This document shows, one piece after another, positions 645 to 41,887 of a DNA stretch of 64,000 nucleotides; positions within the stretch are counted from its first letter, which is position 1, and each line of letters begins with the position of its first letter. The notes under the pieces are model-generated. The model made no database searches, was not told where the DNA came from, and worked only from the letters and a program-made list of their open reading frames with translations. The stretch comes from an uncultured Gammaproteobacteria bacterium (GTDB taxonomy: Bacteria; Pseudomonadota; Gammaproteobacteria; Chromatiales; Chromatiaceae): positions 2,763-66,762 of the forward strand of contig CAWBPR010000012.1 in the NCBI GenBank assembly GCA_963790775.1. Direction: 5' to 3'. The translations under genes and the position numbers were made by a program.

Positions 645-1494
645 CGTTGAGCCCCAGGGCAGAGATCAGATCAACACCCCCTGGATCGCCTTGGCTATCG
701 CTAAACACCCAATGGACATAGCGCAGGGTGGATTGGATGCTGCGGTGGCCCAGTTGATATTGCAACTGCTGCACCGGCATCCCGGCCTGCAGCTGGTGGG
801 TCGCATAGGCGTGTCTCAAACTATGGATGCCACCGACCTTGTCAATGCCCGCTTGCTGCTTGGCGCGGCGAAAGACCTTTTGTGGCGTACAGATGGATAA
901 GGGTTCGTCGGGATGCAGGTCATTGGGAAACAACCAGACCTTGGATCGTTGGGTGCGCCAATAGCTCCTCAGCCTTGCCAGTAAAGCCGGTGGCAAGATC
1001 ACATGGCGATCCTTCGCGCCCTTACCCTGATCGATACGCAACAGGCCCCGTTCACTGTCGATGTGGCGCAGCTTGAGCTTCACCAGTTCACTCACTCGCA
1101 GGCCGCAACCGTAGCAGGTCAACAACAAGGTGCGGTGTTTCAGATTGGTACAGGCTTGCAGAAGGCGCACGATCTCTGCGCGTTGCAGCAGCTCCGGGAT
1201 GCGTTGCTTGCGCTTCGGTACTTGCAGGGTCACATCGAAAAAGGCCCGCTTGAGCACCTGCAGATAGAAGAAACGGATGGCGTTGAGGTAGAGCCGGCAA
1301 CTGGCATCGCTCAAGTGGCGTTCCTTGACCAGATAGAGAAAGTAAGCCTGTAGCTGTTCAACGCTGAGTTGATCCGGTGGCTGATGGGTGTGTCGGGCGA
1401 GGTCCTTCACCGCCATCAGATAGCTCTGATGGGTCCGTGGGGAGAAGCCACGCACCGTCATCTCATCGATCATCTGTTCACGTAATTGAGTCAT
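637..1494 (-). CDS. tyrosine recombinase (phage-integrase family) associated with the IS91 transposase
   Basis: 285 aa with an N-terminal SAM-like core-binding domain (RTHQSYLMAVKDLARH..). The catalytic region has GLRVSEL..L, HSLRHAYATH and LGHRSIQSTLRYVH (R..HxxR..Y). A GGAG lies upstream of the ATG. Confidence 0.85.
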   Translation of the reverse strand: MTQLREQMIDEMTVRGFSPRTHQSYLMAVKDLARHTHQPPDQLSVEQLQAYFLYLVKERHLSDASCRLYLNAIRFFYLQVLKRAFFDVTLQVPKRKQRIPELLQRAEIVRLLQACTNLKHRTLLLTCYGCGLRVSELVKLKLRHIDSERGLLRIDQGKGAKDRHVILPPALLARLRSYWRTQRSKVWLFPNDLHPDEPLSICTPQKVFRRAKQQAGIDKVGGIHSLRHAYATHQLQAGMPVQQLQYQLGHRSIQSTLRYVHWVFSDSQGDPGGVDLISALGLNDG

Positions 1495-1687: not shown

Positions 1688-3076
1688 ATGGACGGGAAAA
1701 TAGAACAATCCGACTCCAGAATTGAACAGTTTTGGCAGAGATATATGACAATCTGCCAGACTTTTCGCATCCCTGAAAAGGCCCTGCCCTGGTACCGGCG
1801 ACATGTACAGGCTTTCATTGATCAATATCCCGGAATTCGTTTGCAGTCGCAGTCGGCGGAAAATCTGCAAGTTTGGCTTGAAGGTCTTGGCCGTAATGAG
1901 CAGTTGACTGGTTGGCAATACCGGCAAAAGGTCGATGCCCTGCGGCTGCTTTTCTGTCACATGGTGCGCGCGACATGGGCCTTGGAGTTTGATTGGGATC
2001 GCTGGGCGATGGCTGCGCAACCATTGGAGCAAGACCATCCAACGGTTGCCAGAACCTTTGAAATGATTGAGAAAGCGGTAAAAGATCCGAAAAACGATCT
2101 GGGAAAACGTTTTCCTGAGGTCTACAGAAAGTACCTGGCGGCCATTCGGATACCGGAATACTCCATCAACACTGAGAAGAGCTATCTGAGCTGGATCAAT
2201 CGATTCCTTCGTTTTCACAACAAAACACATCCCCAAGATTGTGCAGAGCCAGAAGTTGCCTCCTTTTTAGAGTATTTGGCGGTTCAACGCAAGGTTGCCG
2301 GCGCCACTCAGGCTCAGGCGTTGAATGCGATCGTCTTTTTCTTCACAAAAGTCCTGGAAAAACCTTTGGGTGAAATTGGCCCATTCAGACGCCCCAAAAA
2401 GCCTAAACGGATACCCACCGTATTGAACCCGGATGAAATTCAACGGCTGTTTTCCCAACTCCATGGCATGCATAGCCTGATGATCCGGCTGATGTACGGC
2501 ACCGGGATGCGGGTCATGGAATGTGTTCGCTTGCGTATCCTTGATCTGGATTTTTCCTATCACCATATCGTTGTGCGTCAAAGTAAGGGCAAGAAGGACA
2601 GAGTGGTACCGATGCCGGATGCCTTGTTGAACCTGTTGCAAAAGCAGGTCAAATGGGTGGAACAACTCCATCACAAGGATCTTGATGCCGGATTTGGGAC
2701 GGTATTTCTACCCGAGGCATTGGCCCGCAAGTACCCGAATGCCTTGCGTGAATTACGCTGGCAATATCTGTTTCCAGCAAGCCGTCTGGCGCAAAACCCC
2801 CGGTCAGGCATCATGCATCGTCATCATATTCACCAGAGCGCGATTCAGAAGGCGGTCAAGCAAGCAGCCACGAAAGCGAATATTCTGAAAAGAGTCACCA
2901 GCCATACCATGCGTCACTCATTTGCGACACATCTTCTGGAGACAGGTTCTGATATTCGAACAGTACAAGAACTACTCGGCCATGCGAACGTAGAAACCAC
3001 TATGATTTATACCCATGTCATGAAACGAGGCGGAAACGGTACTCGGAGTCCATTGGATCATTTAAAATTTCATTAG
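1688..3076 (+). CDS. intI: integron integrase (IntI family) with an approximately 140-aa N-terminal extension
   Basis: Collinear with IntI1 from ..YSINTEKSYLSWINRFLRFH.. onward. All catalytic boxes are present (GTGMRVMECVRLR, SKGKKDR, HTMRHSFATHLL, LLGHANVETTMIYTHV). The IntI-specific insertion is present (LPEALARKYPNALRELRWQYLFPASRLAQNPRSGIMHRHHI). Confidence 0.9.
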   Translation: MDGKIEQSDSRIEQFWQRYMTICQTFRIPEKALPWYRRHVQAFIDQYPGIRLQSQSAENLQVWLEGLGRNEQLTGWQYRQKVDALRLLFCHMVRATWALEFDWDRWAMAAQPLEQDHPTVARTFEMIEKAVKDPKNDLGKRFPEVYRKYLAAIRIPEYSINTEKSYLSWINRFLRFHNKTHPQDCAEPEVASFLEYLAVQRKVAGATQAQALNAIVFFFTKVLEKPLGEIGPFRRPKKPKRIPTVLNPDEIQRLFSQLHGMHSLMIRLMYGTGMRVMECVRLRILDLDFSYHHIVVRQSKGKKDRVVPMPDALLNLLQKQVKWVEQLHHKDLDAGFGTVFLPEALARKYPNALRELRWQYLFPASRLAQNPRSGIMHRHHIHQSAIQKAVKQAATKANILKRVTSHTMRHSFATHLLETGSDIRTVQELLGHANVETTMIYTHVMKRGGNGTRSPLDHLKFH

Positions 3077-33136: not shown

Positions 33137-33711
33137 ACGAAATCGTCTGGATTTTTATCAGCGCCCTGTTGATCAACAATTTTGTATTGGCCTATTTTCT
33201 CGGCCTGTGTCCCTTCCTGGGAGTCTCGCAACGCCTGGAAACTGCCTTCCGTCTCGGACTGGCCACCATCTTCGTGATGCTGATCACCGCCCTGTGCGCC
33301 TGGGTTCTGAATACCTACATTCTGATTCACGCGCCTTACCTGCGGCTGATCAGTTTCATCGTAGTCATCGCCAGTACGGTCCAGTTCATCGAGATGGTGA
33401 TCAAGAAGCTGAGCCCGGCCCTGTTCAAGGCTCTGGGGATCTTCCTGCCGTTGATCACCACTAACTGCGCCATCCTGGGTCTGGCAATCTTTGCCACCAA
33501 TAAAGGCTATGGATTCGCCGAGGGTATGGCCTATGCTTTGGGCGCCGGCCTGGGATTCACCCTGGCTCTGGTGCTGATGGCCGGTCTGCGGGAGGAATCA
33601 GAGTTGGCGGCAGTGCCGAGGTTGATCAAGGGCACCGCCATGAATCTGATCATTGCGGGGATTCTCTCCATGGCCTTCATGGGTTTCGCCGGTTTACTCA
33701 GCACTGCCTGA
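33133..33711 (+). CDS. rnfA: Rnf complex subunit A
   Basis: 192 aa. Motifs present are NNFVLAYFLGLCPFLGVS and LPLITTNCAILG, typical of RnfA/NqrE. There is a 4-nt overlap with rnfE. Confidence 0.88.
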   Translation: MNEIVWIFISALLINNFVLAYFLGLCPFLGVSQRLETAFRLGLATIFVMLITALCAWVLNTYILIHAPYLRLISFIVVIASTVQFIEMVIKKLSPALFKALGIFLPLITTNCAILGLAIFATNKGYGFAEGMAYALGAGLGFTLALVLMAGLREESELAAVPRLIKGTAMNLIIAGILSMAFMGFAGLLSTA

Positions 33712-33723
33712 CTGTCTAGGATT

Positions 33724-33894
33724 ATGTGGACTCATCTATTCGCGATCTTGGGATTAGTCGCCTTATGCGCAGGCTGGGTGCTGTTTCAACAGTGGCTGCG
33801 GCGGGTAGACCCGGCGTCTGGGAAATCCGCAGATTCCTGTTCCGGGTGTAGATCCTGTGGCTGTACCCCACCAACCCAGGAAGACAGGGAGTGA
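33724..33894 (+). CDS. small (56 aa) membrane protein with Cys-rich tail, below the ORF-track cutoff
   Basis: My own translation is MWTHLFAILGLVALCAGWVLFQQWLRRVDPASGKSADSCSGCRSCGCTPPTQEDRE-stop. This is one TM helix, a basic stretch and CSGCRSCGC. An AGGA lies 3 nt before the ATG, 12 nt after the rnfA stop. The architecture resembles FeoB-associated Cys-rich peptides. Confidence 0.45.
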   Translation: MWTHLFAILGLVALCAGWVLFQQWLRRVDPASGKSADSCSGCRSCGCTPPTQEDRE

Positions 33895-33949
33895 AACCGA
33901 TGGATTTGTTTTCAGGGCCTATTACACACTGATCCAAGGGCACAAATAA

Positions 33950-33967
33950 AAGCGCCTGGTAGCGCTT
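33950..33967 (+). terminator. short hairpin AAGCGC-ctggta-GCGCTT at the end of the rnf block
   Basis: The 6-bp stem is read directly and is preceded by AAATAAA. There is no clear U-tract, so this is weak. Confidence 0.25.
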
Positions 33968-33993
33968 GAATCAATTGATGTGATTGATTTTAT

Positions 33994-34042
33994 TGGAGGC
34001 TGAGCCCGGAATCGAACCGAGGTATACGGCTTTGCAGGCCGT
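33994..34042 (-). repeat. tRNA-Cys(GCA) 3' fragment (anticodon arm to CCA), copy 1 of a 44-bp direct repeat
   Basis: The minus strand reads ACGGC-CTGCAAA-GCCGT-ATAC-CTCGG-TTCGATT-CCGGG-CTCAGCC-T-CCA. This is a perfect anticodon arm with GCA, a T arm, the 3' acceptor strand, the U73 discriminator typical of tRNA-Cys, and an encoded CCA. No complementary 5' acceptor strand (GGCTGAG) or D arm follows. Confidence 0.75.
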
Positions 34043-34200
34043 GGATGTTTAATTATTCACTTTTTAATTCAGTTAGTTATAAATTTAAAGTGGTGTCCCA
34101 CTTTTTTGACCCACTCTATGTAGGAAACTACGTAATTGTTCCGTAGATACCATACGGTTCGTCCGAATATTTTCACCATACACGCCTCAGCGCTGGCTTT

Positions 34201-34536
34201 TTACTCGACTGTGACCTCTCGCTCAATTGCTCGCTTTACCAACTCGTTTAGATTGATGTTTTTTTGCCTTGCTGCGATTACCGCTGCCCGGTGAAGATCT
34301 CGACCAATCCGTACGTTGAATGTACCTTTATAAGCCTTCTGTGGCTCGATATTCAAATCCACACAAGTCTTTATATAATCATCCACAGCTTCGTGGAACG
34401 CCGCTTCTATCTCATGTACCGTCTCCCCCTCATAGTTCACCAGCGGATCGATAAACTCCAGCTTACCGAACAGGCACTCATCCTCGACACTGGCCTCGAC
34501 AGACCCATAAAAACCTTTGTATTCCATGAACTTCAT
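34201..34536 (-). CDS. hicB: HicB-family antitoxin
   Basis: 111 aa. The N-terminus is MKFMEYKGFYGSVEASVEDECLFGKLEF.. and the C-terminus is RHH-like (GTFNVRIGRDLHRAAVIAARQKNINLNELVKRAIE). There is a 4-nt overlap with hicA. Confidence 0.85.
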   Translation of the reverse strand: MKFMEYKGFYGSVEASVEDECLFGKLEFIDPLVNYEGETVHEIEAAFHEAVDDYIKTCVDLNIEPQKAYKGTFNVRIGRDLHRAAVIAARQKNINLNELVKRAIEREVTVE

Positions 34537-34793
34537 ATCAATCCACCCTGTACCAGTTTTTCGATCAATTGCCGGAGTGCATAACGTTTGACGATATTCC
34601 CAGGATGCGGTTTGTGCAGATTGATCATCTGATCTGTATTACCGTTATCGAACTTCACCCGGGAACCGCTTCCCTGCACTTCCTGATAACCCAGCGCCTT
34701 CAATAAAGCTTTCAATTCCTGCCATGTAAAGTCTGCAGGAACCGCCTTGAGCTTAGCTATCAGTTTGTCTCGCCTTCCCATCTGCAACTCCAT
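34533..34793 (-). CDS. hicA: HicA-family mRNA interferase toxin
   Basis: The start is trimmed to MELQMGRRDKLIAKLKAVPADFTWQELKALLKALGYQEVQGSGSRVKF..LHKPHPGNIV, a HicA/YcfA-like fold signature. Confidence 0.8.
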   Translation of the reverse strand: MELQMGRRDKLIAKLKAVPADFTWQELKALLKALGYQEVQGSGSRVKFDNGNTDQMINLHKPHPGNIVKRYALRQLIEKLVQGGLI

Positions 34794-35429
34794 TTCAGTT
34801 GCTTGAAGCATAGCACTCCAACCAAAATACGCAACTATTATATAGTTGCAATGGATCACAAGGCAAAAACACATATACCGATATTTAACCGGTCTGATAT
34901 GCGGCCAAATTATGGAAAGAACAAGGTGTTTACAAATCCTTAACTTAAGAAGTATCTATATGATATCTATTCAATATGTAATTATTCTTATGCGGACACA
35001 TAAACAGCCATAAAAACTGGACATCACGAACATACCTGATAGGAAAGAGTTGGTGTCGCTGATGGAGCAAATGCGGATTTCGAAGAATTCACATCATCGT
35101 CGAGCCCTCGCTGACTTTGCGCTTGAAGCGGCTGCACACTCGGTGGGCTTTCGCCGGAGCCTTCCACCTAGCACTAATCCTGTAGATCCATAATTGGGTT
35201 GGCTGCATAGGCAAGGTGCTGGATGCGAAACTGGATGCGGGTGTTTTCTATCCCACCCAGGAATGAATAACGGTGGATTTAATCAGCGTCAATCAACTGG
35301 TGGAATGTCGGTGAAATACCTCAATTGATTTCAACTTCTTCCAGTGCCTGAAGTATCTCATCCATCAGCCCGCTCACCTCATTCAAATACAATGTAACCT
35401 CTTCTGGCGCCTCCCCCTGTGTAAGAATG

Positions 35430-35681
35430 TTACGCCAGGACCAGGCAGTGGGTCATGTAGCGGAGATTCCTGACCGATTCCCAGCTCATCCCCTCATCGA
35501 TGTGGAACAGCACACGTTCCCAACCAGAAAAACCGGCATGCTCGACCACTGCCTCACGCAGGTTCAGCCACGCTCCCTGGAGATCGGAGAGTATTGTTTT
35601 TTCATATCCGGAAGGTTCTCGATCAAAGACCATTGTTGACAATTTTAAGTAGAATACCGGATCAGTTGGTTCATGAGACAT
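35430..35681 (-). CDS. hypothetical protein, possibly frameshifted at its 3' end
   Basis: The start is trimmed to MSHEPTD to avoid overlap with the SNF2 gene. After the TAA at 35430 a different frame continues with coding-like WRNILTQGEAPEEVTLYLNEVSGLMDEILQALEEVEIN-stop. No family recognised. Confidence 0.35.
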   Translation of the reverse strand: MSHEPTDPVFYLKLSTMVFDREPSGYEKTILSDLQGAWLNLREAVVEHAGFSGWERVLFHIDEGMSWESVRNLRYMTHCLVLA

Positions 35682-35701
35682 TCTTACCATACCTTTATGC
35701 C

Positions 35702-38530
35702 ATGTCGAAAACAAAGAAACACAGCAAACATTCCAAACAACGTACCCGACCATCAGGCTGGTTCACCAGTAACGCCGATGAGATCGAACGCCGACGTGAA
35801 CGTGGTCTCACTGGGGCATTCCAGATAGCACCCCTGTCACAGGACGATGATTTTTTCGGTGCCTATCAGATCAACTCCACTACCGAGCAGGCTTATCGGG
35901 TAGAAATTCGCTCTCTATCGGAACCCATCAACAGCTGTAACTGCCCCGACCACCGCATCAACGGTTTGGGTACCTGCAAGCATATCGAGGCAACGCTGAA
36001 CCGGCTCCAATACAGACGCAAGCGTGCTTTCAAGAATGCTGCGGGCGCGGGCAGCCCGTACATCGAAATTTTTCTGGATCGGCGCGATAACCAAATCCGA
36101 ATAGCCTGGCCAACAGGCAGCCACCAGCGTTCAAAGGCCAGCGAACTCCTCGCCCCTTTCTTTGGAGACGATAAGGTCCTGATAGGAAACCCACTGGATA
36201 AACTACCCGCCATGCAGCGGGTAATCAGTGCCTCTCATGGGATTGTCCAACGCAAGATCCGATTTTCCAGCGAACTGATCGCTTGGGTCGAGGTATTGGA
36301 CAGACAGCAACAACTGGCCCGTGCTCGGCAACACTTCGAGACCGAGGTGGCGTCCGGCAAGGCGAGTCTCGACCTCCTGGTAAAACATGCGCTGTATCCC
36401 TACCAGCAGGAGGGAATGCTACATTTGGCATTCACCGGTCGTGCCCTGCTGGCGGATGAGATGGGCTTGGGTAAGACGGTACAGGCCGTCGCTGCCTGTG
36501 AACTCCTGCACCGTATTAAGGACATTCAACGTGTATTGGTGATCTCCCCTGCTTCGCTCAAGGGCGAATGGGAAGAGCAGATCACCAAATTCACCAACCT
36601 GCCCTCGCGTATCATCCAGGGAGCACGCTCCAAACGTTTGCACCAATACAGGAAGGCCGGGTTTTTCTATCTTGCCAATTACGAGCAAATCCGCATGGAT
36701 GTTGAAGAGATCAACACCATCCTGGCACCAGATGTGATCATTCTCGACGAGGCACAACGCATCAAGAACTGGCAGACCAAGACAGCCATTTCGATTAAGC
36801 GGCTGATCAGCCCCTACGCCTTCGTGCTGACAGGCACGCCAGTGGAGAACCGCATCGACGAGATCTACTCCATCGTACAGTTCCTCGATCCACATATTTT
36901 CGGCCCCTTATTCCGCTTCAACCGGGATTTCTACCAACTGGACGAAAAAGGGCACGCGAGCGGCTACAAAAACATCGACAAACTACATACACGACTGCAG
37001 TCCGTCATGCTGCGCCGGCGCAAAGAGGATGTGGAGGGGCAACTGCCAGGCCGCACGGTAAACACCTATTTCGTTCCCATGCACAACGAACAGCATCTGC
37101 GCTATGAAGAGTACGAGTCGAAGGTGGCGCGTCTGGCCGCTATGGCGAGAAATCGACCATTGAAAAAAGAGGAAATGGAACGGCTTCAGCAATACCTGGC
37201 CTGCATGCGTATGCTTTGCGACACGCCTTACATTCTTGATCAGGATTGCCGCATCTCTCCCAAGTTGAAAGAGCTCGTCACCATCCTCCAGGAAATTCTG
37301 GAGGATGGTGATCACAAGATCATTATCTTTTCCGAGTGGCAGCGCATGCTGGAATTAGTGCGGGAGCAGACCAGAGAGATGGGCTTGGATCACGCCTGGC
37401 ATACTGGCGAAGTTCCACAGCCCAAACGCCGCGAAGAGATCCGTCGCTTCAAGGACGATCCTGAATGCCGGCTTTTCCTCTCCACTGATTCCGGTTCCGT
37501 CGGGCTCAACCTGCAGGCGGCTGATGTCGTAATCAACCTGGATATGCCATGGAACCCAGCCAAGCTGGAACAGCGCATCGCGCGCGCCTGGCGCAAACAT
37601 CAAAAGCGTCCAGTACAAGTGATCAATCTGGTAACCGAACACTCCATCGAGCACCGCATGCTCTCGCTACTGGAGCAGAAACGCTTACTGGCCGAGGGTG
37701 TGGTGGACGGTAAGGGTGACAATGAAATGAGCCTGCCCTCCGGTCGTGCCGCCTTTCTGGAGCGGCTTGACGCCCTGATGGCGTGTGAAGCAAGTAAACC
37801 GCACAAACCACCCACTGATCCGATCGATCATTTAAGGGATGCAATCCTTACCCAATGGAGCCCTCAACTGGAACTCATCGAGTTGCATGGCGAAGGGGAG
37901 CAACTGACGTTGCTGGTGGTGGCTGACCGGCCGCATGACTCCCTACAGAACGCCCTTACCGATCAAATACAGGAACACTTTCCCGAGCAGACACCACAGT
38001 TACAATTACTTGACACGAAAGCTTACGCAACCATCCAGCAATTGATCGAGACCGGCATCTTGAGCGCCAACCTGGATTCGGCCAGAACCTTGTACCGGGC
38101 ACCTATCGGTGATAGGGCAAAAGATAGCGGACAATCTAAACGACTATCCGAGGCTCAAGATCGTTTCCGCCAGGGTGATCACAAACGACGGATGGCGAAA
38201 GTACTGGCCGACGGAAGCTTTGTTCTGGAGGCGCTCGACCCGATGTGTGAGGTCGTGGAGACGGCGCTGCAAGCCCTGGTAATATGGCAGAGTCATGATG
38301 CTGAGATACCCCTGGAACTGGGATTGATCGAATCCGCACTGATTCGAACGAACCTGTTGCCAGCTAAAACCCTATCCCTGGTCGCACGTCTGCGGGATAA
38401 GCAAGACGAACTGGATAAAGCTCAGGCACACAAACTGCTTACACAAAGCGAAAGCTTCCTTTCGCAGGCAGCTGCATTATTGGAATTGGGTAAAGAACCA
38501 AGGATTAACGCAAACCAGCAGGTGAGATGA
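35702..38530 (+). CDS. SWIM zinc-finger + SNF2-family helicase (YwqA-like), about 250-aa C-terminal region of unknown function
   Basis: The start is trimmed to MSKTKKHSK. SWIM motif: CNCPDHRINGLGTCKHIEA. Helicase motifs: LLADEMGLGKT (I), ILDEAQRIKN (II), LTGTPVENR (III), and a C-terminal lobe with LSTDSGSVGLNLQAAD..WNPAKLEQRIARAWRKHQ. Confidence 0.88.
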   Translation: MSKTKKHSKHSKQRTRPSGWFTSNADEIERRRERGLTGAFQIAPLSQDDDFFGAYQINSTTEQAYRVEIRSLSEPINSCNCPDHRINGLGTCKHIEATLNRLQYRRKRAFKNAAGAGSPYIEIFLDRRDNQIRIAWPTGSHQRSKASELLAPFFGDDKVLIGNPLDKLPAMQRVISASHGIVQRKIRFSSELIAWVEVLDRQQQLARARQHFETEVASGKASLDLLVKHALYPYQQEGMLHLAFTGRALLADEMGLGKTVQAVAACELLHRIKDIQRVLVISPASLKGEWEEQITKFTNLPSRIIQGARSKRLHQYRKAGFFYLANYEQIRMDVEEINTILAPDVIILDEAQRIKNWQTKTAISIKRLISPYAFVLTGTPVENRIDEIYSIVQFLDPHIFGPLFRFNRDFYQLDEKGHASGYKNIDKLHTRLQSVMLRRRKEDVEGQLPGRTVNTYFVPMHNEQHLRYEEYESKVARLAAMARNRPLKKEEMERLQQYLACMRMLCDTPYILDQDCRISPKLKELVTILQEILEDGDHKIIIFSEWQRMLELVREQTREMGLDHAWHTGEVPQPKRREEIRRFKDDPECRLFLSTDSGSVGLNLQAADVVINLDMPWNPAKLEQRIARAWRKHQKRPVQVINLVTEHSIEHRMLSLLEQKRLLAEGVVDGKGDNEMSLPSGRAAFLERLDALMACEASKPHKPPTDPIDHLRDAILTQWSPQLELIELHGEGEQLTLLVVADRPHDSLQNALTDQIQEHFPEQTPQLQLLDTKAYATIQQLIETGILSANLDSARTLYRAPIGDRAKDSGQSKRLSEAQDRFRQGDHKRRMAKVLADGSFVLEALDPMCEVVETALQALVIWQSHDAEIPLELGLIESALIRTNLLPAKTLSLVARLRDKQDELDKAQAHKLLTQSESFLSQAAALLELGKEPRINANQQVR

Positions 38531-38848
38531 TGCGTGTCAACCAACCCCGAGTTAGTTCTTGATTAACATAACCGCGCTATCCGTCACCTAATTACGAAGA
38601 TTTTACTGATCCCTTAACGGAGACTCTAAACACTGCCTATGAACTAGAAACCATGGCAAAGACACTACCCTATAACTGGTGTCCACGTGTTTTCGTTATC
38701 CATACGCGTGAGATCACCCACTTTTCTTTCTTAATTAGGCCGATTGTAGCGGGTCTAGGCTGTTTATAATTGTGTTTATACCCGGCCCTTTTGAGCACAA
38801 AATAAGACACCTGATTTCGTCTTAACTAATTGATTTAATTGTTATTAA

Positions 38849-38892
38849 TGGAGGCTGAGCCCGGAATCGAACCGAGGTATACGGCTTTGCAG
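38849..38892 (-). repeat. tRNA-Cys 3' fragment, copy 2 of the 44-bp direct repeat
   Basis: Identical to 33994-34037 over 44 nt (TGGAGGCTGAGCCCGGAATCGAACCGAGGTATACGGCTTTGCAG), then diverges. The 5' anticodon-stem strand here (GCGGA) mispairs and no acceptor 5' strand is present. Confidence 0.75.
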
Positions 38893-39651
38893 TCCGCTTC
38901 TCTACTATTATTATCAATTGGTTACTAGCTATACCACTCGTTATGCCACTCAATTGGGCATAATTTTCCCATTCTGTACTGATCAAATTCTCTTTCTTTG
39001 GTTTCTGCTTGAGTAACAATTCGCAAAAGTCAGTTATCGAGGGATTCGAACCCTCGATGTTTCATTGTTTTTCTATAGGTTACTAAGACTTCATGTCCAG
39101 ATCATGCCTTAATGGTACACGAAACTCTCGAAAGGGGTAAAAGCGTCTACTTCAAATTGCTCTCTGTACGCAACACGAAGTCATCCTGCCGTTTTCCAGA
39201 CACCGATTCACAAATGACGTAATCCTGACACGGAGATTTTCAGTCCATTGGATACTAAATTATTATTATATATTCAATGAGTTACCGTGGTGCCCGTTGC
39301 TCATCTTTGCACCACGATGCAGGACAGCGCATAATTCATTCACGCAAAATTCCCGCATGGATTATTCATGAAGAATAGACCGACCAACGTTACTCGTACA
39401 TGACTACCCTGCTCTACCAAGTTCATTAAATAGCGACACGAATCCTTGTTCGGAGTTCGGCTCTACCCCCTCAATACCACGGCTCTTCGACACTAACAAT
39501 GACCGAGAATTACTGATTGGCGTCGCTTATGAAAAACACCAAGAACATCAAGCTAAGGAGGGACAATAGTAATCGAACCTCCATTTGCATCACTCAATGC
39601 ATTCACTCCCAAAACTGAGATATATTTAGACTCCAAGAGGAGTATAAGAGC

Positions 39652-39912
39652 ATGGCTATGTTGACCATTCGTAATCTCGACGATGAGGTCAAGGACGACT
39701 CAGCATGAGGGCCGCCAGACACGGTTGCTCCATGGAGGAAGAAGCACGGCAGATTCTGCGTCAAGCGCTGTCTGAAAAGACGTCAGAAAAGGGGCTGGCC
39801 AGCCGTATTCATAAACGGGTGGTGGAGACGACTGGCGGTGTGGAGCTGGAGCTGCCGGCACACTCTCAACCCCGTCCAGCTCTCGATTTTTCAGGAGGTA
39901 GTGCGCGATTCT
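39652..39912 (+). pseudogene. vapB: vapB/fitA-type (Arc/RHH) antitoxin, frameshifted
   Basis: MAMLTIRNLDDEVKD stops at 39706-39708. The expected continuation RLSMRAARHGCSMEEEARQILRQAL..GGVELELP.. is in the +1 frame (the ORF at 39705). This implies a 1-nt indel near 39695. The 3' limit is approximate. Confidence 0.7.
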
Positions 39913-40332
39913 GCTGGACACCAATGTGCTGTCCTAACTGATGAAACCTGCGCCGGAATTTGCGGTAATACAATGGCTGGATGCACAGCTGGATAGCCAG
40001 GTTTTCTTGCCCGCTGTCACCAAGGCCGAGATTGAACTCGGTATAAGCTTTGTGGCCCAACGGGAAACACAAGAATACGTTTACCCGACTGGCCGGCGCA
40101 GTGTTCGACGAGTTTCGGGACCGAATCCTTCCCTACGATGCTAGCGATGCCTCCTACTATGCCAACTTGGTTGCCACCGCCTGGAAGACTGGCCGCTCCA
40201 TCCCGGTGGAGGATGCCCGGATCGCCGCCATCACCCAGGAAAACCGATTGACTCTGGAAACACGCAACACCAAGAATTTCGAATTCATTACCGATTTTTT
40301 TATTGATCAATCCATGGCAAATAACCGGTTAA
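39901..40332 (+). pseudogene. vapC: vapC/fitB-type PIN toxin with one nonsense codon and about three frameshifts
   Basis: GTG (39901, AGGAGG upstream), then an extra G at 39907. ILLDTNVLS is followed by TAA (39935-39937) where Glu is expected, then LMKPAPEFAVIQWLDAQ... There is a frame switch near 40050 to PNGKHKNTF..RILPYDASDASYYANL..DARIAAITQENRLTLETRNTKNF. A final switch in the T7 run (40294-40300) leads to LINPW. Confidence 0.75.
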
Positions 40333-41394: not shown

Positions 41395-41620
41395 GACAGC
41401 ATTCCGCACTACCCTCGAAACGGTGGATTTGATGATCAAGGATCATCGAAGCAATATGCCGAGTTTAATTGAAAATCACGAGATCCCATACCTGCGGATA
41501 CGCAGGGCCGGAGAACATCAGGCAACGACAACGGTTAGGCAGTGCCAAACGAATGCCAGGAAGCAGACATGTCGATGTTCGACCGATGGTGTCCCTCCCG
41601 AAAACTCATATCACACACTA

Positions 41621-41887
41621 TCACGCTGCCAACCGTTCATAATGGTGATGTAGGCCACCGACTTCTGGAAATTACACTACCTTTCCAAGAGTTGGTAGCT
41701 GCACCGATTGAGACTCAAGACTATCCACCCCTCGCGACAGATGTGTGCGCCAACGATGATAATAGTTGAAATGGCTGGTTAGGTTTCGTTTGCCAATACC
41801 TCCCCCCGTGTCGGTACACTTACCTTTCAATATTAAGGATAGTCTGTGTGTTGGAAAGCAGTTACGTTGAGGAATAAGGCCATCCAT
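41621..41887 (-). pseudogene. C-terminal remnant of a DDE (rve/integrase-core) transposase with an in-frame TAA
   Basis: ..LTSHFNYYHRWRTHLS..SQSVQLPTLGKVV-TAA-FPEVGGLHHHYERLAA-stop. This matches the conserved C-terminal tail of a common rve-family transposase (..YYHRSRTHLSL...P..GKV...P.VGGLHHRYER.AA). No N-terminal or catalytic part is present. Confidence 0.6.

What the first reader, a model, noticed from the sequence alone, without database searches (positions are those of the whole stretch)
33994..38892. Two identical 44-bp tRNA-Cys 3' fragments in direct orientation bracket a 4.8-kb AT-rich segment with no integrase and no intact tRNA
The 44 nt at 33994-34037 and 38849-38892 are identical. 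They correspond to the anticodon loop through CCA of a tRNA-Cys(GCA) on the minus strand, with the U73 discriminator. This is the classic signature of att sites left by integration into a tRNA 3' end. Three things are odd. (a) Neither copy has the 5' acceptor strand or D arm, so no functional tRNA-Cys is regenerated here. (b) Copy 1 keeps a perfect anticodon stem while copy 2 does not, the opposite of what a simple tRNA-proximal/distal model predicts for a minus-strand tRNA. (c) The cargo (hicAB, one hypothetical, a SWIM-SNF2 helicase) lacks any recombinase. This looks like the eroded remnant of tandem islands at a tRNA-Cys hotspot that also destroyed the tRNA. The rnf operon ends only about 100 bp away.
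Basis: partly seen in the sequence, partly recalled or inferred. Interest (0 to 1): 0.6.

Follow-up and report, generated by a model that had tools for sequence, protein, structure and literature searches.

The report
Decayed tRNA-Cys island array remnant
The two identical tRNA-Cys pieces are leftover attachment sites of mobile islands that once stacked up behind the tRNA-Cys gene; the islands have since lost their integrase and now sit away from the intact tRNA, which is an ordinary, already known kind of genome scar.

Summary
Two identical 44-nt copies of the tRNA-Cys(GCA) 3' part, anticodon loop to CCA, lie in direct orientation 4,811 nt apart. The window has no tRNA and no integrase.

The tRNA was not destroyed. 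One intact tRNA-Cys, 43/44 identical to the fragments, lies next to tRNA-Gly on another contig (C19).

Both copies are attP-like junctions (P arm, core, P' flank), not broken tRNA genes.
- Copy 1 carries a "type A" arm that recurs with different cargo in at least five related uncultured gammaproteobacterial MAGs.
- Copy 2 carries a "type B" arm, the one found at the far end of islands that still have their integrase.
- In six genomes of the same family, a roughly 375-aa tyrosine integrase sits 130-190 nt after tRNA-Cys, behind the same kind of terminator-like flank.

This genome has no intact copy of that integrase, and the window holds no remnant of it. Cargo is hicAB, a truncated Fic gene and a SWIM-SNF2 helicase. 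A decayed vapBC lies beyond copy 2.

The junction with the rnf operon is a synteny break. How the array was separated from the tRNA is unresolved.

Verdict: a decayed, CIME-like remnant of tandem tRNA-Cys islands, which is a known kind. The scan has logged many comparable tRNA-fragment islands on other DNA.

The parts
33860..33940 (.). Junction between rnf-operon DNA, which is syntenic with relatives, and the island remnant
   Evidence: Similarity to G006 and G015 ends at about 33,858 by blastn and about 33,918 by tblastx. The att unit shared with other arrays starts at about 33,940. In G015 the rnf operon runs on into the block that is G000:C5:678.9-695.6 kb.
33940..33993 (-). P' flank of copy 1 ('T1' type), with a terminator-like hairpin at 33950-33967 followed by a T run
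   Evidence: The terminator scan flags the minus strand at 33967-33950. The flank is homologous to the sequence after tRNA-Cys in G060, G109, G032, G106 and G006:C13. In G060 and G109 the integrase gene follows it. In G006:C13 a 38-aa integrase remnant follows it.
33994..34037 (-). Copy 1 of the 44-nt core (tRNA-Cys anticodon loop to CCA)
   Evidence: 43/44 identical to the intact tRNA-Cys on C19.
34038..34120 (-). Type A P arm. ACGGC (34038-34042) completes the anticodon stem. An AT-rich spacer follows, then two direct AGTGGG repeats (34090-34116).
   Evidence: Recurs at 70/75, 67/74, 60/74 and 59/74 identity in G006:C13, G006:C12, G006:C9 and G054:C13, and also in G002 (twice), G005, G040 and MAG064, each time directly upstream of a tRNA-Cys core. 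One metagenome contig follows the window up to 34120 and then diverges (table 7).
34201..34874 (-). hicA (34533-34874) and hicB (34201-34536) toxin-antitoxin pair; both frames are open
   Evidence: Pfam HicA_toxin 1.2e-12 and HicB 7.6e-16. The block hicAB + arm + core is 80% identical over 932 nt to G002:C131:4936-5866.
34877..35166 (+). Conserved 'X' block: the upstream region plus the first 51 codons (35014-35166) of a Fic-family gene, truncated
   Evidence: tblastn with the 402-aa Fic protein of G002 gives 69% identity over residues 2-52 only. The DNA matches G002:C131:1921-2208 and G006:C12:14961-15131.
35702..38530 (+). SWIM-SNF2 helicase, the main intact cargo gene
   Evidence: Pfam SNF2-rel_dom 4.8e-47 and Helicase_C 2.9e-24. 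A CxC...CxH SWIM motif is visible in the translation. PADLOC gives only generic SNF2 matches to ZorD, DpdE and DrmD helicase cores.
38795..38848 (-). P' flank of copy 2, homologous to the copy 1 flank but with a weaker hairpin
   Evidence: Part of the 102-nt repeat at 81% identity; about 41/58 identical outside the core. It is not flagged by the terminator scan. No integrase remnant lies between it and the SNF2 stop.
38849..38892 (-). Copy 2 of the 44-nt core
38893..38965 (-). Type B P arm of a second, mostly lost element. It holds GCGGA (4 of 5 bases of the tRNA's own stem strand), a match to the IHF consensus (TATCAATTGGTTA, 38912-38924) and two GAGTGG direct repeats (38928-38951).
   Evidence: 60/72 identical to G113:C301, 55/74 to G136, 52/73 to G054:C39 and 51/67 to G060b. 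Shuffled controls gave a mean of 26 and a maximum of 47 matches. G060b is the distal end of the 95-kb island that carries the cognate integrase. The IHF match was read by eye against the published consensus and was not tested.
39650..40330 (+). Decayed vapBC/fitAB-type toxin-antitoxin pair; together with the preceding non-coding stretch it is the remnant of the second element
   Evidence: Pfam FitA-like RHH 4.5e-09 on a fragment. Frameshifts and an in-frame stop are visible in the sequence. The DNA is 83% identical to G002:C45:12617-13563.

Best explanation
The segment is what is left of a tandem array of integrative elements that target the tRNA-Cys gene through a tyrosine integrase. That integrase crosses over in the anticodon loop, so each integration duplicates the 44 nt from the anticodon loop to CCA. 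Each of the two copies is an internal junction of such an array: P arm of one element, the core, then the P' flank of the next. Neither is the tRNA-proximal end, so neither has a D arm or a 5' acceptor strand. The 4.8-kb unit between them keeps both att sites but has lost its integrase, which normally starts about 170 nt after the P' flank. It also carries a truncated Fic gene. It therefore fits the description of a cis-mobilizable element (CIME). Its intact genes are hicAB, which probably acts as an addiction module next to the att arm, and a SWIM-SNF2 helicase. The element beyond copy 2 is reduced to its arm and a dead vapBC. The element that once followed copy 1 has been cut off within about 20-70 nt of its terminator and joined to the end of the rnf operon. 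The functional tRNA-Cys lies elsewhere, on C19. The array was separated from it by rearrangement or deletion, or was built at a secondary site; which of these happened is not resolved. Shown: the repeats, the arm and flank homologies, the integrase-bearing archetypes, the absence of an integrase here, and the synteny breaks. Inferred: the order of events, present immobility, and the stabilising role of hicAB.
For: The repeat is exact and non-random. The identity block starts exactly at the anticodon loop, which is the 'A' class used by 2,083 of 3,919 Islander islands (PMC4383910). The archetype is G060: Gly, intact tRNA-Cys, terminator flank, a 377-aa integrase, about 95 kb of island, then a type B arm with ACGGC and the same 44-nt core, then tRNA-Leu. 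The same integrase lies 130-190 nt after the tRNA-Cys core in G060, G109, G135, G079, G113 and G057. In G006:C13 a 38-aa N-terminal remnant (71% identical) follows the same flank. Copy 1's arm belongs to type A and copy 2's arm to type B. The window's unit of flank, core and type A arm recurs at 77-92% identity in G006 (four times), G002 (twice), G005, G054 and G040. There is no integrase in the window, no intact ortholog in G000 (the best hit is a 165-aa fragment, 37-39% identical), and no PF00589 hit in the relatives' arrays that were fetched. The Fic gene is truncated and vapBC is decayed. The intact tRNA-Cys is on C19. Synteny with G006 and G015 stops at about 33.86-33.92 kb and resumes with G006 at 41,820. 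A public-run contig spans 33700-34021, covering the rnf-to-core junction.
Against: No element in this genus was found with both a type A arm and an intact integrase, so the link between type A arms and this integrase rests on the shared P' flank and on the G006:C13 remnant. No empty site or presence/absence polymorphism for the 4.8-kb unit was found, because relatives are not syntenic here and the metagenome contigs are only 150-500 nt long. Both copies share a base (A44) that the resident tRNA lacks, which a simple left-edge crossover model does not by itself predict. G000 is a MAG with 7.9% estimated contamination, and a G006-like relative occurs in the same sample. Contig C19, and therefore the 'intact tRNA elsewhere', could belong to a co-binned relative. 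The hairpin after copy 2 is weak.
Confidence: 0.75

Rival explanations
1. The array was built in place at a tRNA-Cys gene that lay next to rnf, and later erosion deleted that gene's 5' half, destroying a tRNA-Cys copy at this locus.
For: The flank left of copy 1 resembles the terminator that follows tRNA-Cys in genomes with no adjacent integrase, for example G032. A deleted proximal end cannot be excluded, because the DNA right of the dead vapBC is not syntenic with G006 until 41,820.
Against: Copy 2's right flank is a type B attP arm, not tRNA sequence. Of 121 family genomes searched, most show a single tRNA-Cys match, in the Gly-Cys arrangement. An intact Gly-Cys pair exists on C19. In G015 the rnf operon continues into a different conserved block, and G006 has no tRNA within 20 kb downstream of rnf. 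The only full-length sohB of the genome lies 1.5 kb to the right of copy 2 and looks like a core gene rather than cargo.
Confidence: 0.12
2. The units are not fossils but an active family of integrase-less satellite elements. Each has a type A arm, a toxin-antitoxin cassette and variable cargo, and is moved in trans by the tRNA-Cys integrase of incoming islands.
For: The type A arm is conserved (77-93% identity) beside unrelated cargo in at least five MAGs. A different type II toxin-antitoxin pair sits beside the arm in most copies: HicAB, VapBC, MazE-like, MazEF, HigBA and DUF433-DUF5615. One islet in G006, between the intact tRNA and its repeat, is only 1.26 kb and holds essentially one toxin-antitoxin pair. 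CIMEs mobilised by accretion are documented (PMC5704250).
Against: No cognate integrase was found in G000, G001, G003 or G004, and only fragments in G006. Core copies in relatives carry stem-breaking substitutions, as expected for neutral decay. The window's unit contains pseudogenes. No excised-circle junction or empty site was seen. Arm identity is no higher than that of orthologous core DNA between G000 and G006, which is 86-95%.
Confidence: 0.15
3. A local segmental duplication or gene conversion of a tRNA-Cys pseudogene, unrelated to site-specific recombination.
For: Both copies share the private A44 base and a homologous downstream flank.
Against: The upstream flanks belong to two different arm families, each with homologs at att junctions in other genomes. 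Identity is 100% in the core but only about 67-70% in the flank, which fits recombination at the core rather than one duplication. The block boundary coincides with the anticodon loop, as in integrase-bearing islands.
Confidence: 0.03
4. A MAG assembly or binning artefact has produced false adjacencies at the repeats.
For: Estimated contamination is 7.9%. A G006-like strain is present in the same sample: the loose end at 34120 matches the G006:C13 arm context. C19 has a lower GC content (50.7%) than the bin mean.
Against: The left breakpoint is not at the repeat but 55-130 nt outside it. A Logan contig bridges 33700-34021. The same configuration of flank, core and type A arm is assembled independently in G006. 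The repeat is only 44-48 nt of exact identity.
Confidence: 0.06

Closest known systems
Islander-type genomic islands in tRNA genes (tyrosine integrase, anticodon-loop 'A' crossover site; PMC4383910; Williams 2002, cited there)
   Same: There is a direct repeat of the tRNA 3' part starting at the anticodon loop. The attP carries a tRNA fragment that restores the gene. Integrase-bearing members of the same family were found at tRNA-Cys in six related genomes.
   Different: In the window there is no intact tRNA at either end and no integrase, so Islander's own filters would reject it. Both ends are internal array junctions.
Cis-mobilizable elements (CIMEs) and tandem accretion, as in ICESt1-related elements of Streptococcus thermophilus (PMC5704250, citing Pavlovic 2004 and Bellanger 2011)
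   Same: [quoted passage not shown]
   Different: Mobilisation has not been shown. No functional partner element or cognate integrase was found in this genome. The array is no longer attached to the target gene.
Dehalococcoides ssrA genomic-island arrays (PMC3146451) and Prochlorococcus tycheposon islands (bioRxiv 10.1101/2020.12.28.424599)
   Same: Many direct repeats of a tRNA or tmRNA 3' end separate stacked islands. Some units lack the integration module. Degenerate remnants and partial tRNAs are scattered through the region. Sequence next to the repeat is conserved.
   Different: Those arrays stay downstream of the intact target gene, and the Dehalococcoides elements use a serine recombinase. 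Here the recombinase family is a tyrosine integrase and the remnant is displaced from the tRNA.

Membership tests
tRNA-gene integrative island (Islander definition) | A 3' fragment of the target tRNA, in the same orientation, marks the island end | tested here: met
   Two 44-nt fragments in direct orientation, 43/44 identical to the genome's tRNA-Cys.
tRNA-gene integrative island (Islander definition) | A regenerated full-length tRNA gene at the other end | tested here: not met
   ARAGORN finds no tRNA in the window or on contig C12. Rfam tRNA scores 22.4 bits, below the gathering score of 29. The intact gene is on C19.
tRNA-gene integrative island (Islander definition) | A tyrosine integrase gene inside the island | tested here: not met
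   The nearest PF00589 hits are about 31 kb away. tblastn with the cognate G060 integrase finds nothing in 33-42 kb.
tRNA-gene integrative island (Islander definition) | attP-type arms and core homologous to elements that carry the integrase | tested here: met
   The type B arm is 51/67 to 60/72 identical to the arms of G060b, G136 and G113. The P' flank is homologous to the flank that precedes the integrase in G060 and G109.
Cis-mobilizable element (CIME) | Retains attL and attR sites | tested here: met
   Both cores are intact and identical, each with a P arm and a P' flank. This is shown at sequence level only.
Cis-mobilizable element (CIME) | [quoted passage not shown] | tested here: met
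   Pfam on all ORFs of 34.0-38.8 kb gives HicA, HicB and SNF2, one ORF with no hit, and a Fic remnant.
Cis-mobilizable element (CIME) | Can be excised or mobilised when a related functional element supplies the integrase | not testable with these tools
   No cognate integrase was found in G000. No circle junction is visible in the short metagenome contigs.
Functional or split tRNA-Cys gene | A 5' acceptor strand and D arm able to pair with the 3' part | tested here: not met
   The upstream 110 nt of both copies hold no GGCTGAG acceptor strand or D arm. An intact tRNA-Cys exists elsewhere in the assembly.

The most novel reading that the evidence does not exclude
The type A units may be a living family of integrase-less mini-elements in an uncultured marine-sediment gammaproteobacterial lineage. 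Each would consist of a conserved att arm beside an exchangeable slot for a toxin-antitoxin pair, plus optional cargo such as the SWIM-SNF2 helicase. They would be inserted, stacked and shuffled at tRNA-Cys cores by integrases supplied in trans. Recombination among their dispersed cores could then drive the chromosomal rearrangements seen at this locus.
Probability: 0.15. Interest if true: 0.5.

Novelty: new member of a known kind. Interest (0 to 1): 0.25.

Why it matters
It matters mainly for annotation and for reading this genome. The tRNA-Cys pieces should be labelled as att-site fragments, not pseudo-tRNAs. The 33.9-40.4 kb stretch is accessory DNA. The end of the rnf operon is a rearrangement junction. 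More broadly, the locus adds one well-resolved example, with integrase-bearing archetypes identified in the same family, of how tRNA-targeting islands decay into recombinase-less units. Those units keep toxin-antitoxin genes and can end up far from their target gene. The recurring pairing of one conserved att arm with many different toxin-antitoxin families is the only aspect that might repay further study.

Tried and rejected
- **Empty site.** I looked for an empty site or a syntenic locus in relatives. G006 and G015 share rnf but diverge from about 33.9 kb, and G006 synteny resumes only at 41,820, so no presence/absence comparison for the 4.8-kb unit was possible.
- **Collection scans.** Exact-pattern scans of metagenome contigs (type B arm) and genome contigs (type A arm) found nothing. 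A degenerate type A pattern found only the MAGs already known plus one more.
- **Public runs.** The organism is at 2-6x depth with contigs of 150-500 nt. Only the rnf-to-core junction is bridged, and nothing can be said about circles or alternative joins. Parts without cover are not evidence.
- **Contig linkage.** I tried to link the start of contig C19 to another contig by shared k-mers and found none.
- **Integrase remnant.** I looked for a remnant between 38,530 and 38,795 and left of 33,940 and found none.
- **Split or intron-containing tRNA.** Rejected: there is no 5' half nearby and an intact gene exists.
- **Integron-like cassette array.** Rejected: the repeats are tRNA cores with lambda-type arms, the units are 1.3-6.9 kb or larger, and no integrase of any PF00589 kind is adjacent.
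- **Compensatory terminator changes.** I first read the flank after copy 2 as a terminator kept by compensatory changes. The scan does not support a good hairpin there, so I withdrew that claim.
- **Second tRNA fragment.** The T-arm-like hairpin at 39035-39059 is better read as a palindromic, terminator-like hairpin.
- **The 356-aa protein next to the intact tRNA-Cys.** Pfam, PADLOC and PDB sequence searches gave nothing.

Full report
**1. The observation**

The two 44-nt stretches at 33994-34037 and 38849-38892 are identical. A 29-nt probe allowing 3 mismatches finds only these two sites, and none of 100 shuffles gave a match.

Read on the minus strand, each stretch is the anticodon loop with GCA, the 3' strand of the anticodon stem, a 4-nt variable loop, the T arm, the 3' acceptor strand, U73 and CCA. 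ARAGORN finds no tRNA anywhere in the window. Rfam's tRNA model gives only a sub-threshold partial hit at copy 1 (22.4 bits against 29).

The repeat is longer than reported. 33940-34041 and 38795-38896 are 81% identical over 102 nt, so the roughly 55 nt downstream of CCA are homologous too.

The segment is AT-rich only at its ends. The SNF2 gene has 51-57% GC, close to the genome mean of 53.8%.

**2. Where the functional tRNA-Cys is**

A whole-assembly ARAGORN run finds 45 tRNAs. The single tRNA-Cys(GCA) is on contig C19 (377-450, minus strand), just after tRNA-Gly(GCC). It differs from the fragments at one base, G versus A at the first variable-loop position.

So tRNA-Cys has not been destroyed in this assembly. 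One caveat applies. G000 is a MAG with 7.9% estimated contamination, and a close relative occurs in the same sample. C19 could therefore come from a co-binned strain.

**3. The archetype**

In the complete genome G060, from another genus of the same family, the canonical structure is present. It reads, in order:
- tRNA-Gly;
- intact tRNA-Cys;
- an AT-rich flank ending in a GC hairpin and a T run;
- a 377-aa tyrosine integrase that starts about 180 nt after CCA;
- about 95 kb of island;
- a P arm ending in ACGGC;
- the same 44-nt core;
- tRNA-Leu(UAA).

Orthologs of this integrase (44-88% identical) lie 130-190 nt after a tRNA-Cys core in G109, G135, G079, G113 and G057 as well.

The identity block starts exactly at the anticodon loop. 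This is the 'A' attachment class that makes up 2,083 of 3,919 Islander islands (PMC4383910).

The distal repeat in G060 also carries a perfect anticodon stem.

**4. What the two copies are**

I aligned 110 nt upstream and 75 nt downstream of every tRNA-Cys core collected from G000 and 12 relatives. This shows two P-arm families and several P' flank types.

*Copy 1* has a type A arm (34038-34120), made of ACGGC, an AT-rich spacer and two AGTGGG direct repeats at 34090-34116.
- It is 70/75 identical to G006:C13, 67/74 to G006:C12, 60/74 to G006:C9 and 59/74 to G054:C13.
- It also occurs in G002 (twice), G005, G040 and a further MAG.

*Copy 2* has a type B arm (38893-38965), made of two GAGTGG repeats at 38928-38951 and a match to the IHF consensus at 38912-38924. 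The IHF match was read by eye.
- It is 60/72 identical to G113, 55/74 to G136 and 51/67 to the distal arm of the G060 island.
- Shuffled controls gave a mean of 26 and a maximum of 47 matches.

*The downstream flanks* of both copies belong to the type that precedes the integrase in G060 and G109. In G006:C13 that flank is followed by a 38-aa N-terminal integrase remnant, 71% identical. The hairpin is clear after copy 1 (33950-33967) and weak after copy 2.

Both copies are therefore junctions of the form P arm, core, P' flank. These are the internal junctions of a tandem array, equivalent to attP. This is why neither has a D arm or a 5' acceptor strand.

**5. Contents and state of decay**

Between the copies lie:
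- hicB and hicA, with open frames. Together with the arm and core they are 80% identical over 932 nt to a unit in G002.
- A conserved block holding the promoter region and only the first 51 codons of a Fic gene.
- One ORF with no database hit.
- An intact SWIM-SNF2 helicase.

The integrase expected after the copy 2 flank is missing and has left no trace. To the right of copy 2 there is only non-coding DNA and a vapBC/fitAB pair with frameshifts and an in-frame stop. Next comes sohB, the only full-length copy in the genome and probably a core gene.

G000 has no intact ortholog of the tRNA-Cys integrase; the best hit is a 165-aa fragment at 37-39% identity. None of the relatives' tRNA-Cys arrays that I fetched (G006, G002, G040, G054, G136) contains a PF00589 gene.

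**6. Position in the chromosome**

G006 (same genus) and G015 share the rnf operon up to about 33.86-33.92 kb and then diverge. In G015 the operon continues into the block that lies at C5:678.9-695.6 kb in G000. Synteny with G006 resumes at 41,820.

The left edge of the island DNA lies 55-130 nt outside copy 1, just beyond its terminator. The element that once followed copy 1 was therefore truncated and fused to the rnf end.

In G006:C13 the same unit of flank, core and type A arm is joined to different core genes through an integrase stub and a short mobile repeat. Such displacement thus happened more than once in this lineage.

I could not decide whether the G000 remnant was separated from the Gly-Cys locus by rearrangement, was built at a secondary site, or reflects a binning problem. 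A public-run contig does bridge 33700-34021.

**7. Comparison with known systems**

Arrays of tRNA or tmRNA 3' repeats that include integrase-less units and degenerate remnants are described for Dehalococcoides ssrA islands (PMC3146451) and for Prochlorococcus tycheposon islands (10.1101/2020.12.28.424599).

The window fails two Islander criteria, a full tRNA at one end and an internal integrase. It is therefore a derivative of that class rather than a standard member. This scan has already logged many tRNA-fragment islands on other DNA.

**8. What is mildly unusual**

Beside the conserved type A arm sits a different type II toxin-antitoxin pair in most copies:
- HicAB in the window and in G002;
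- VapBC in G006:C12;
- MazE-like in G006:C12 and G054;
- DUF433-DUF5615 in G006:C9;
- HigBA in G040;
- MazEF in MAG064.

One islet in G006, lying between the intact tRNA-Cys and its repeat, is only 1.26 kb long. This could mean an active family of integrase-less mini-elements, but nothing here shows mobility. Core copies in relatives carry stem-breaking substitutions typical of neutral decay.

**9. Verdict**

This is a decayed, CIME-like remnant of tandem tRNA-Cys islands, which is a known kind and of low to moderate interest.

Noticed in passing
G000 contig C19:1-376 (outside the window); L034:2999-4831; L032:10951-12024: Directly downstream of the intact tRNA-Cys (G000, G001, G005), or of a tRNA-Cys fragment (G002, G006), lies a conserved acidic protein of about 356 aa with no Pfam, PADLOC or PDB hit. 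G109:C188 shares only the downstream DNA flank. In G002 the gene is followed by a 232-aa ERCC4-HhH nuclease. In G000 the contig ends inside the gene, and in G006 it is interrupted by a stop.
   Followed up: partly
window 34120-34880, and the equivalent positions in L024, L032, L034, L070, L072 and L092: There is a variable slot next to the conserved type A att arm. Six different toxin-antitoxin families occupy it in different copies. Just outside the arm there is a short hairpin-like motif whose stem varies between copies.
   Followed up: partly
window 39035-39109: A palindromic hairpin whose loop and stem resemble a tRNA T arm (GAGGGATTCGAACCCTC), inside a roughly 64-nt stretch that is 80% identical to G000:C9:53567-53630 and also matches G003 and G004. 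It is probably a small repeated element.
   Followed up: partly
window 41588-41791: An intergenic stretch between sohB and the DUF502 gene is 75-86% identical to sequences in G001, G002, G005 and G006. One of these lies inside the 1.26-kb islet next to the tRNA-Cys of G006 (C9:1042-1180). Its function is unknown.
   Followed up: no
whole assembly G000: ARAGORN finds 45 tRNAs but no tRNA-Phe. The gene is presumably unassembled.
   Followed up: no
L033:9561-9822 (G006:C13); G000:C8:108663-108900 and C5:733603-733863: A roughly 260-nt repeat shared between genomes (238 nt at 98.7% identity with G000:C8, 262 nt at 83.6% with C5) abuts the truncated integrase stub in G006. It is probably a short mobile element involved in the truncation.
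   Followed up: no
window 712-1188 (-) and 2420-3022 (+): Two tyrosine-recombinase genes lie at the start of the window. One scores identically to a copy on C11:10877-11353. They are unrelated to the tRNA-Cys integrase and lie 31 kb from the repeats.
   Followed up: no
G000 contig C4:21305-23657: Three adjacent tyrosine-recombinase genes, with similar trios in G001, G006 and G106. This is the pattern of 'recombinase in trio' elements.
   Followed up: no
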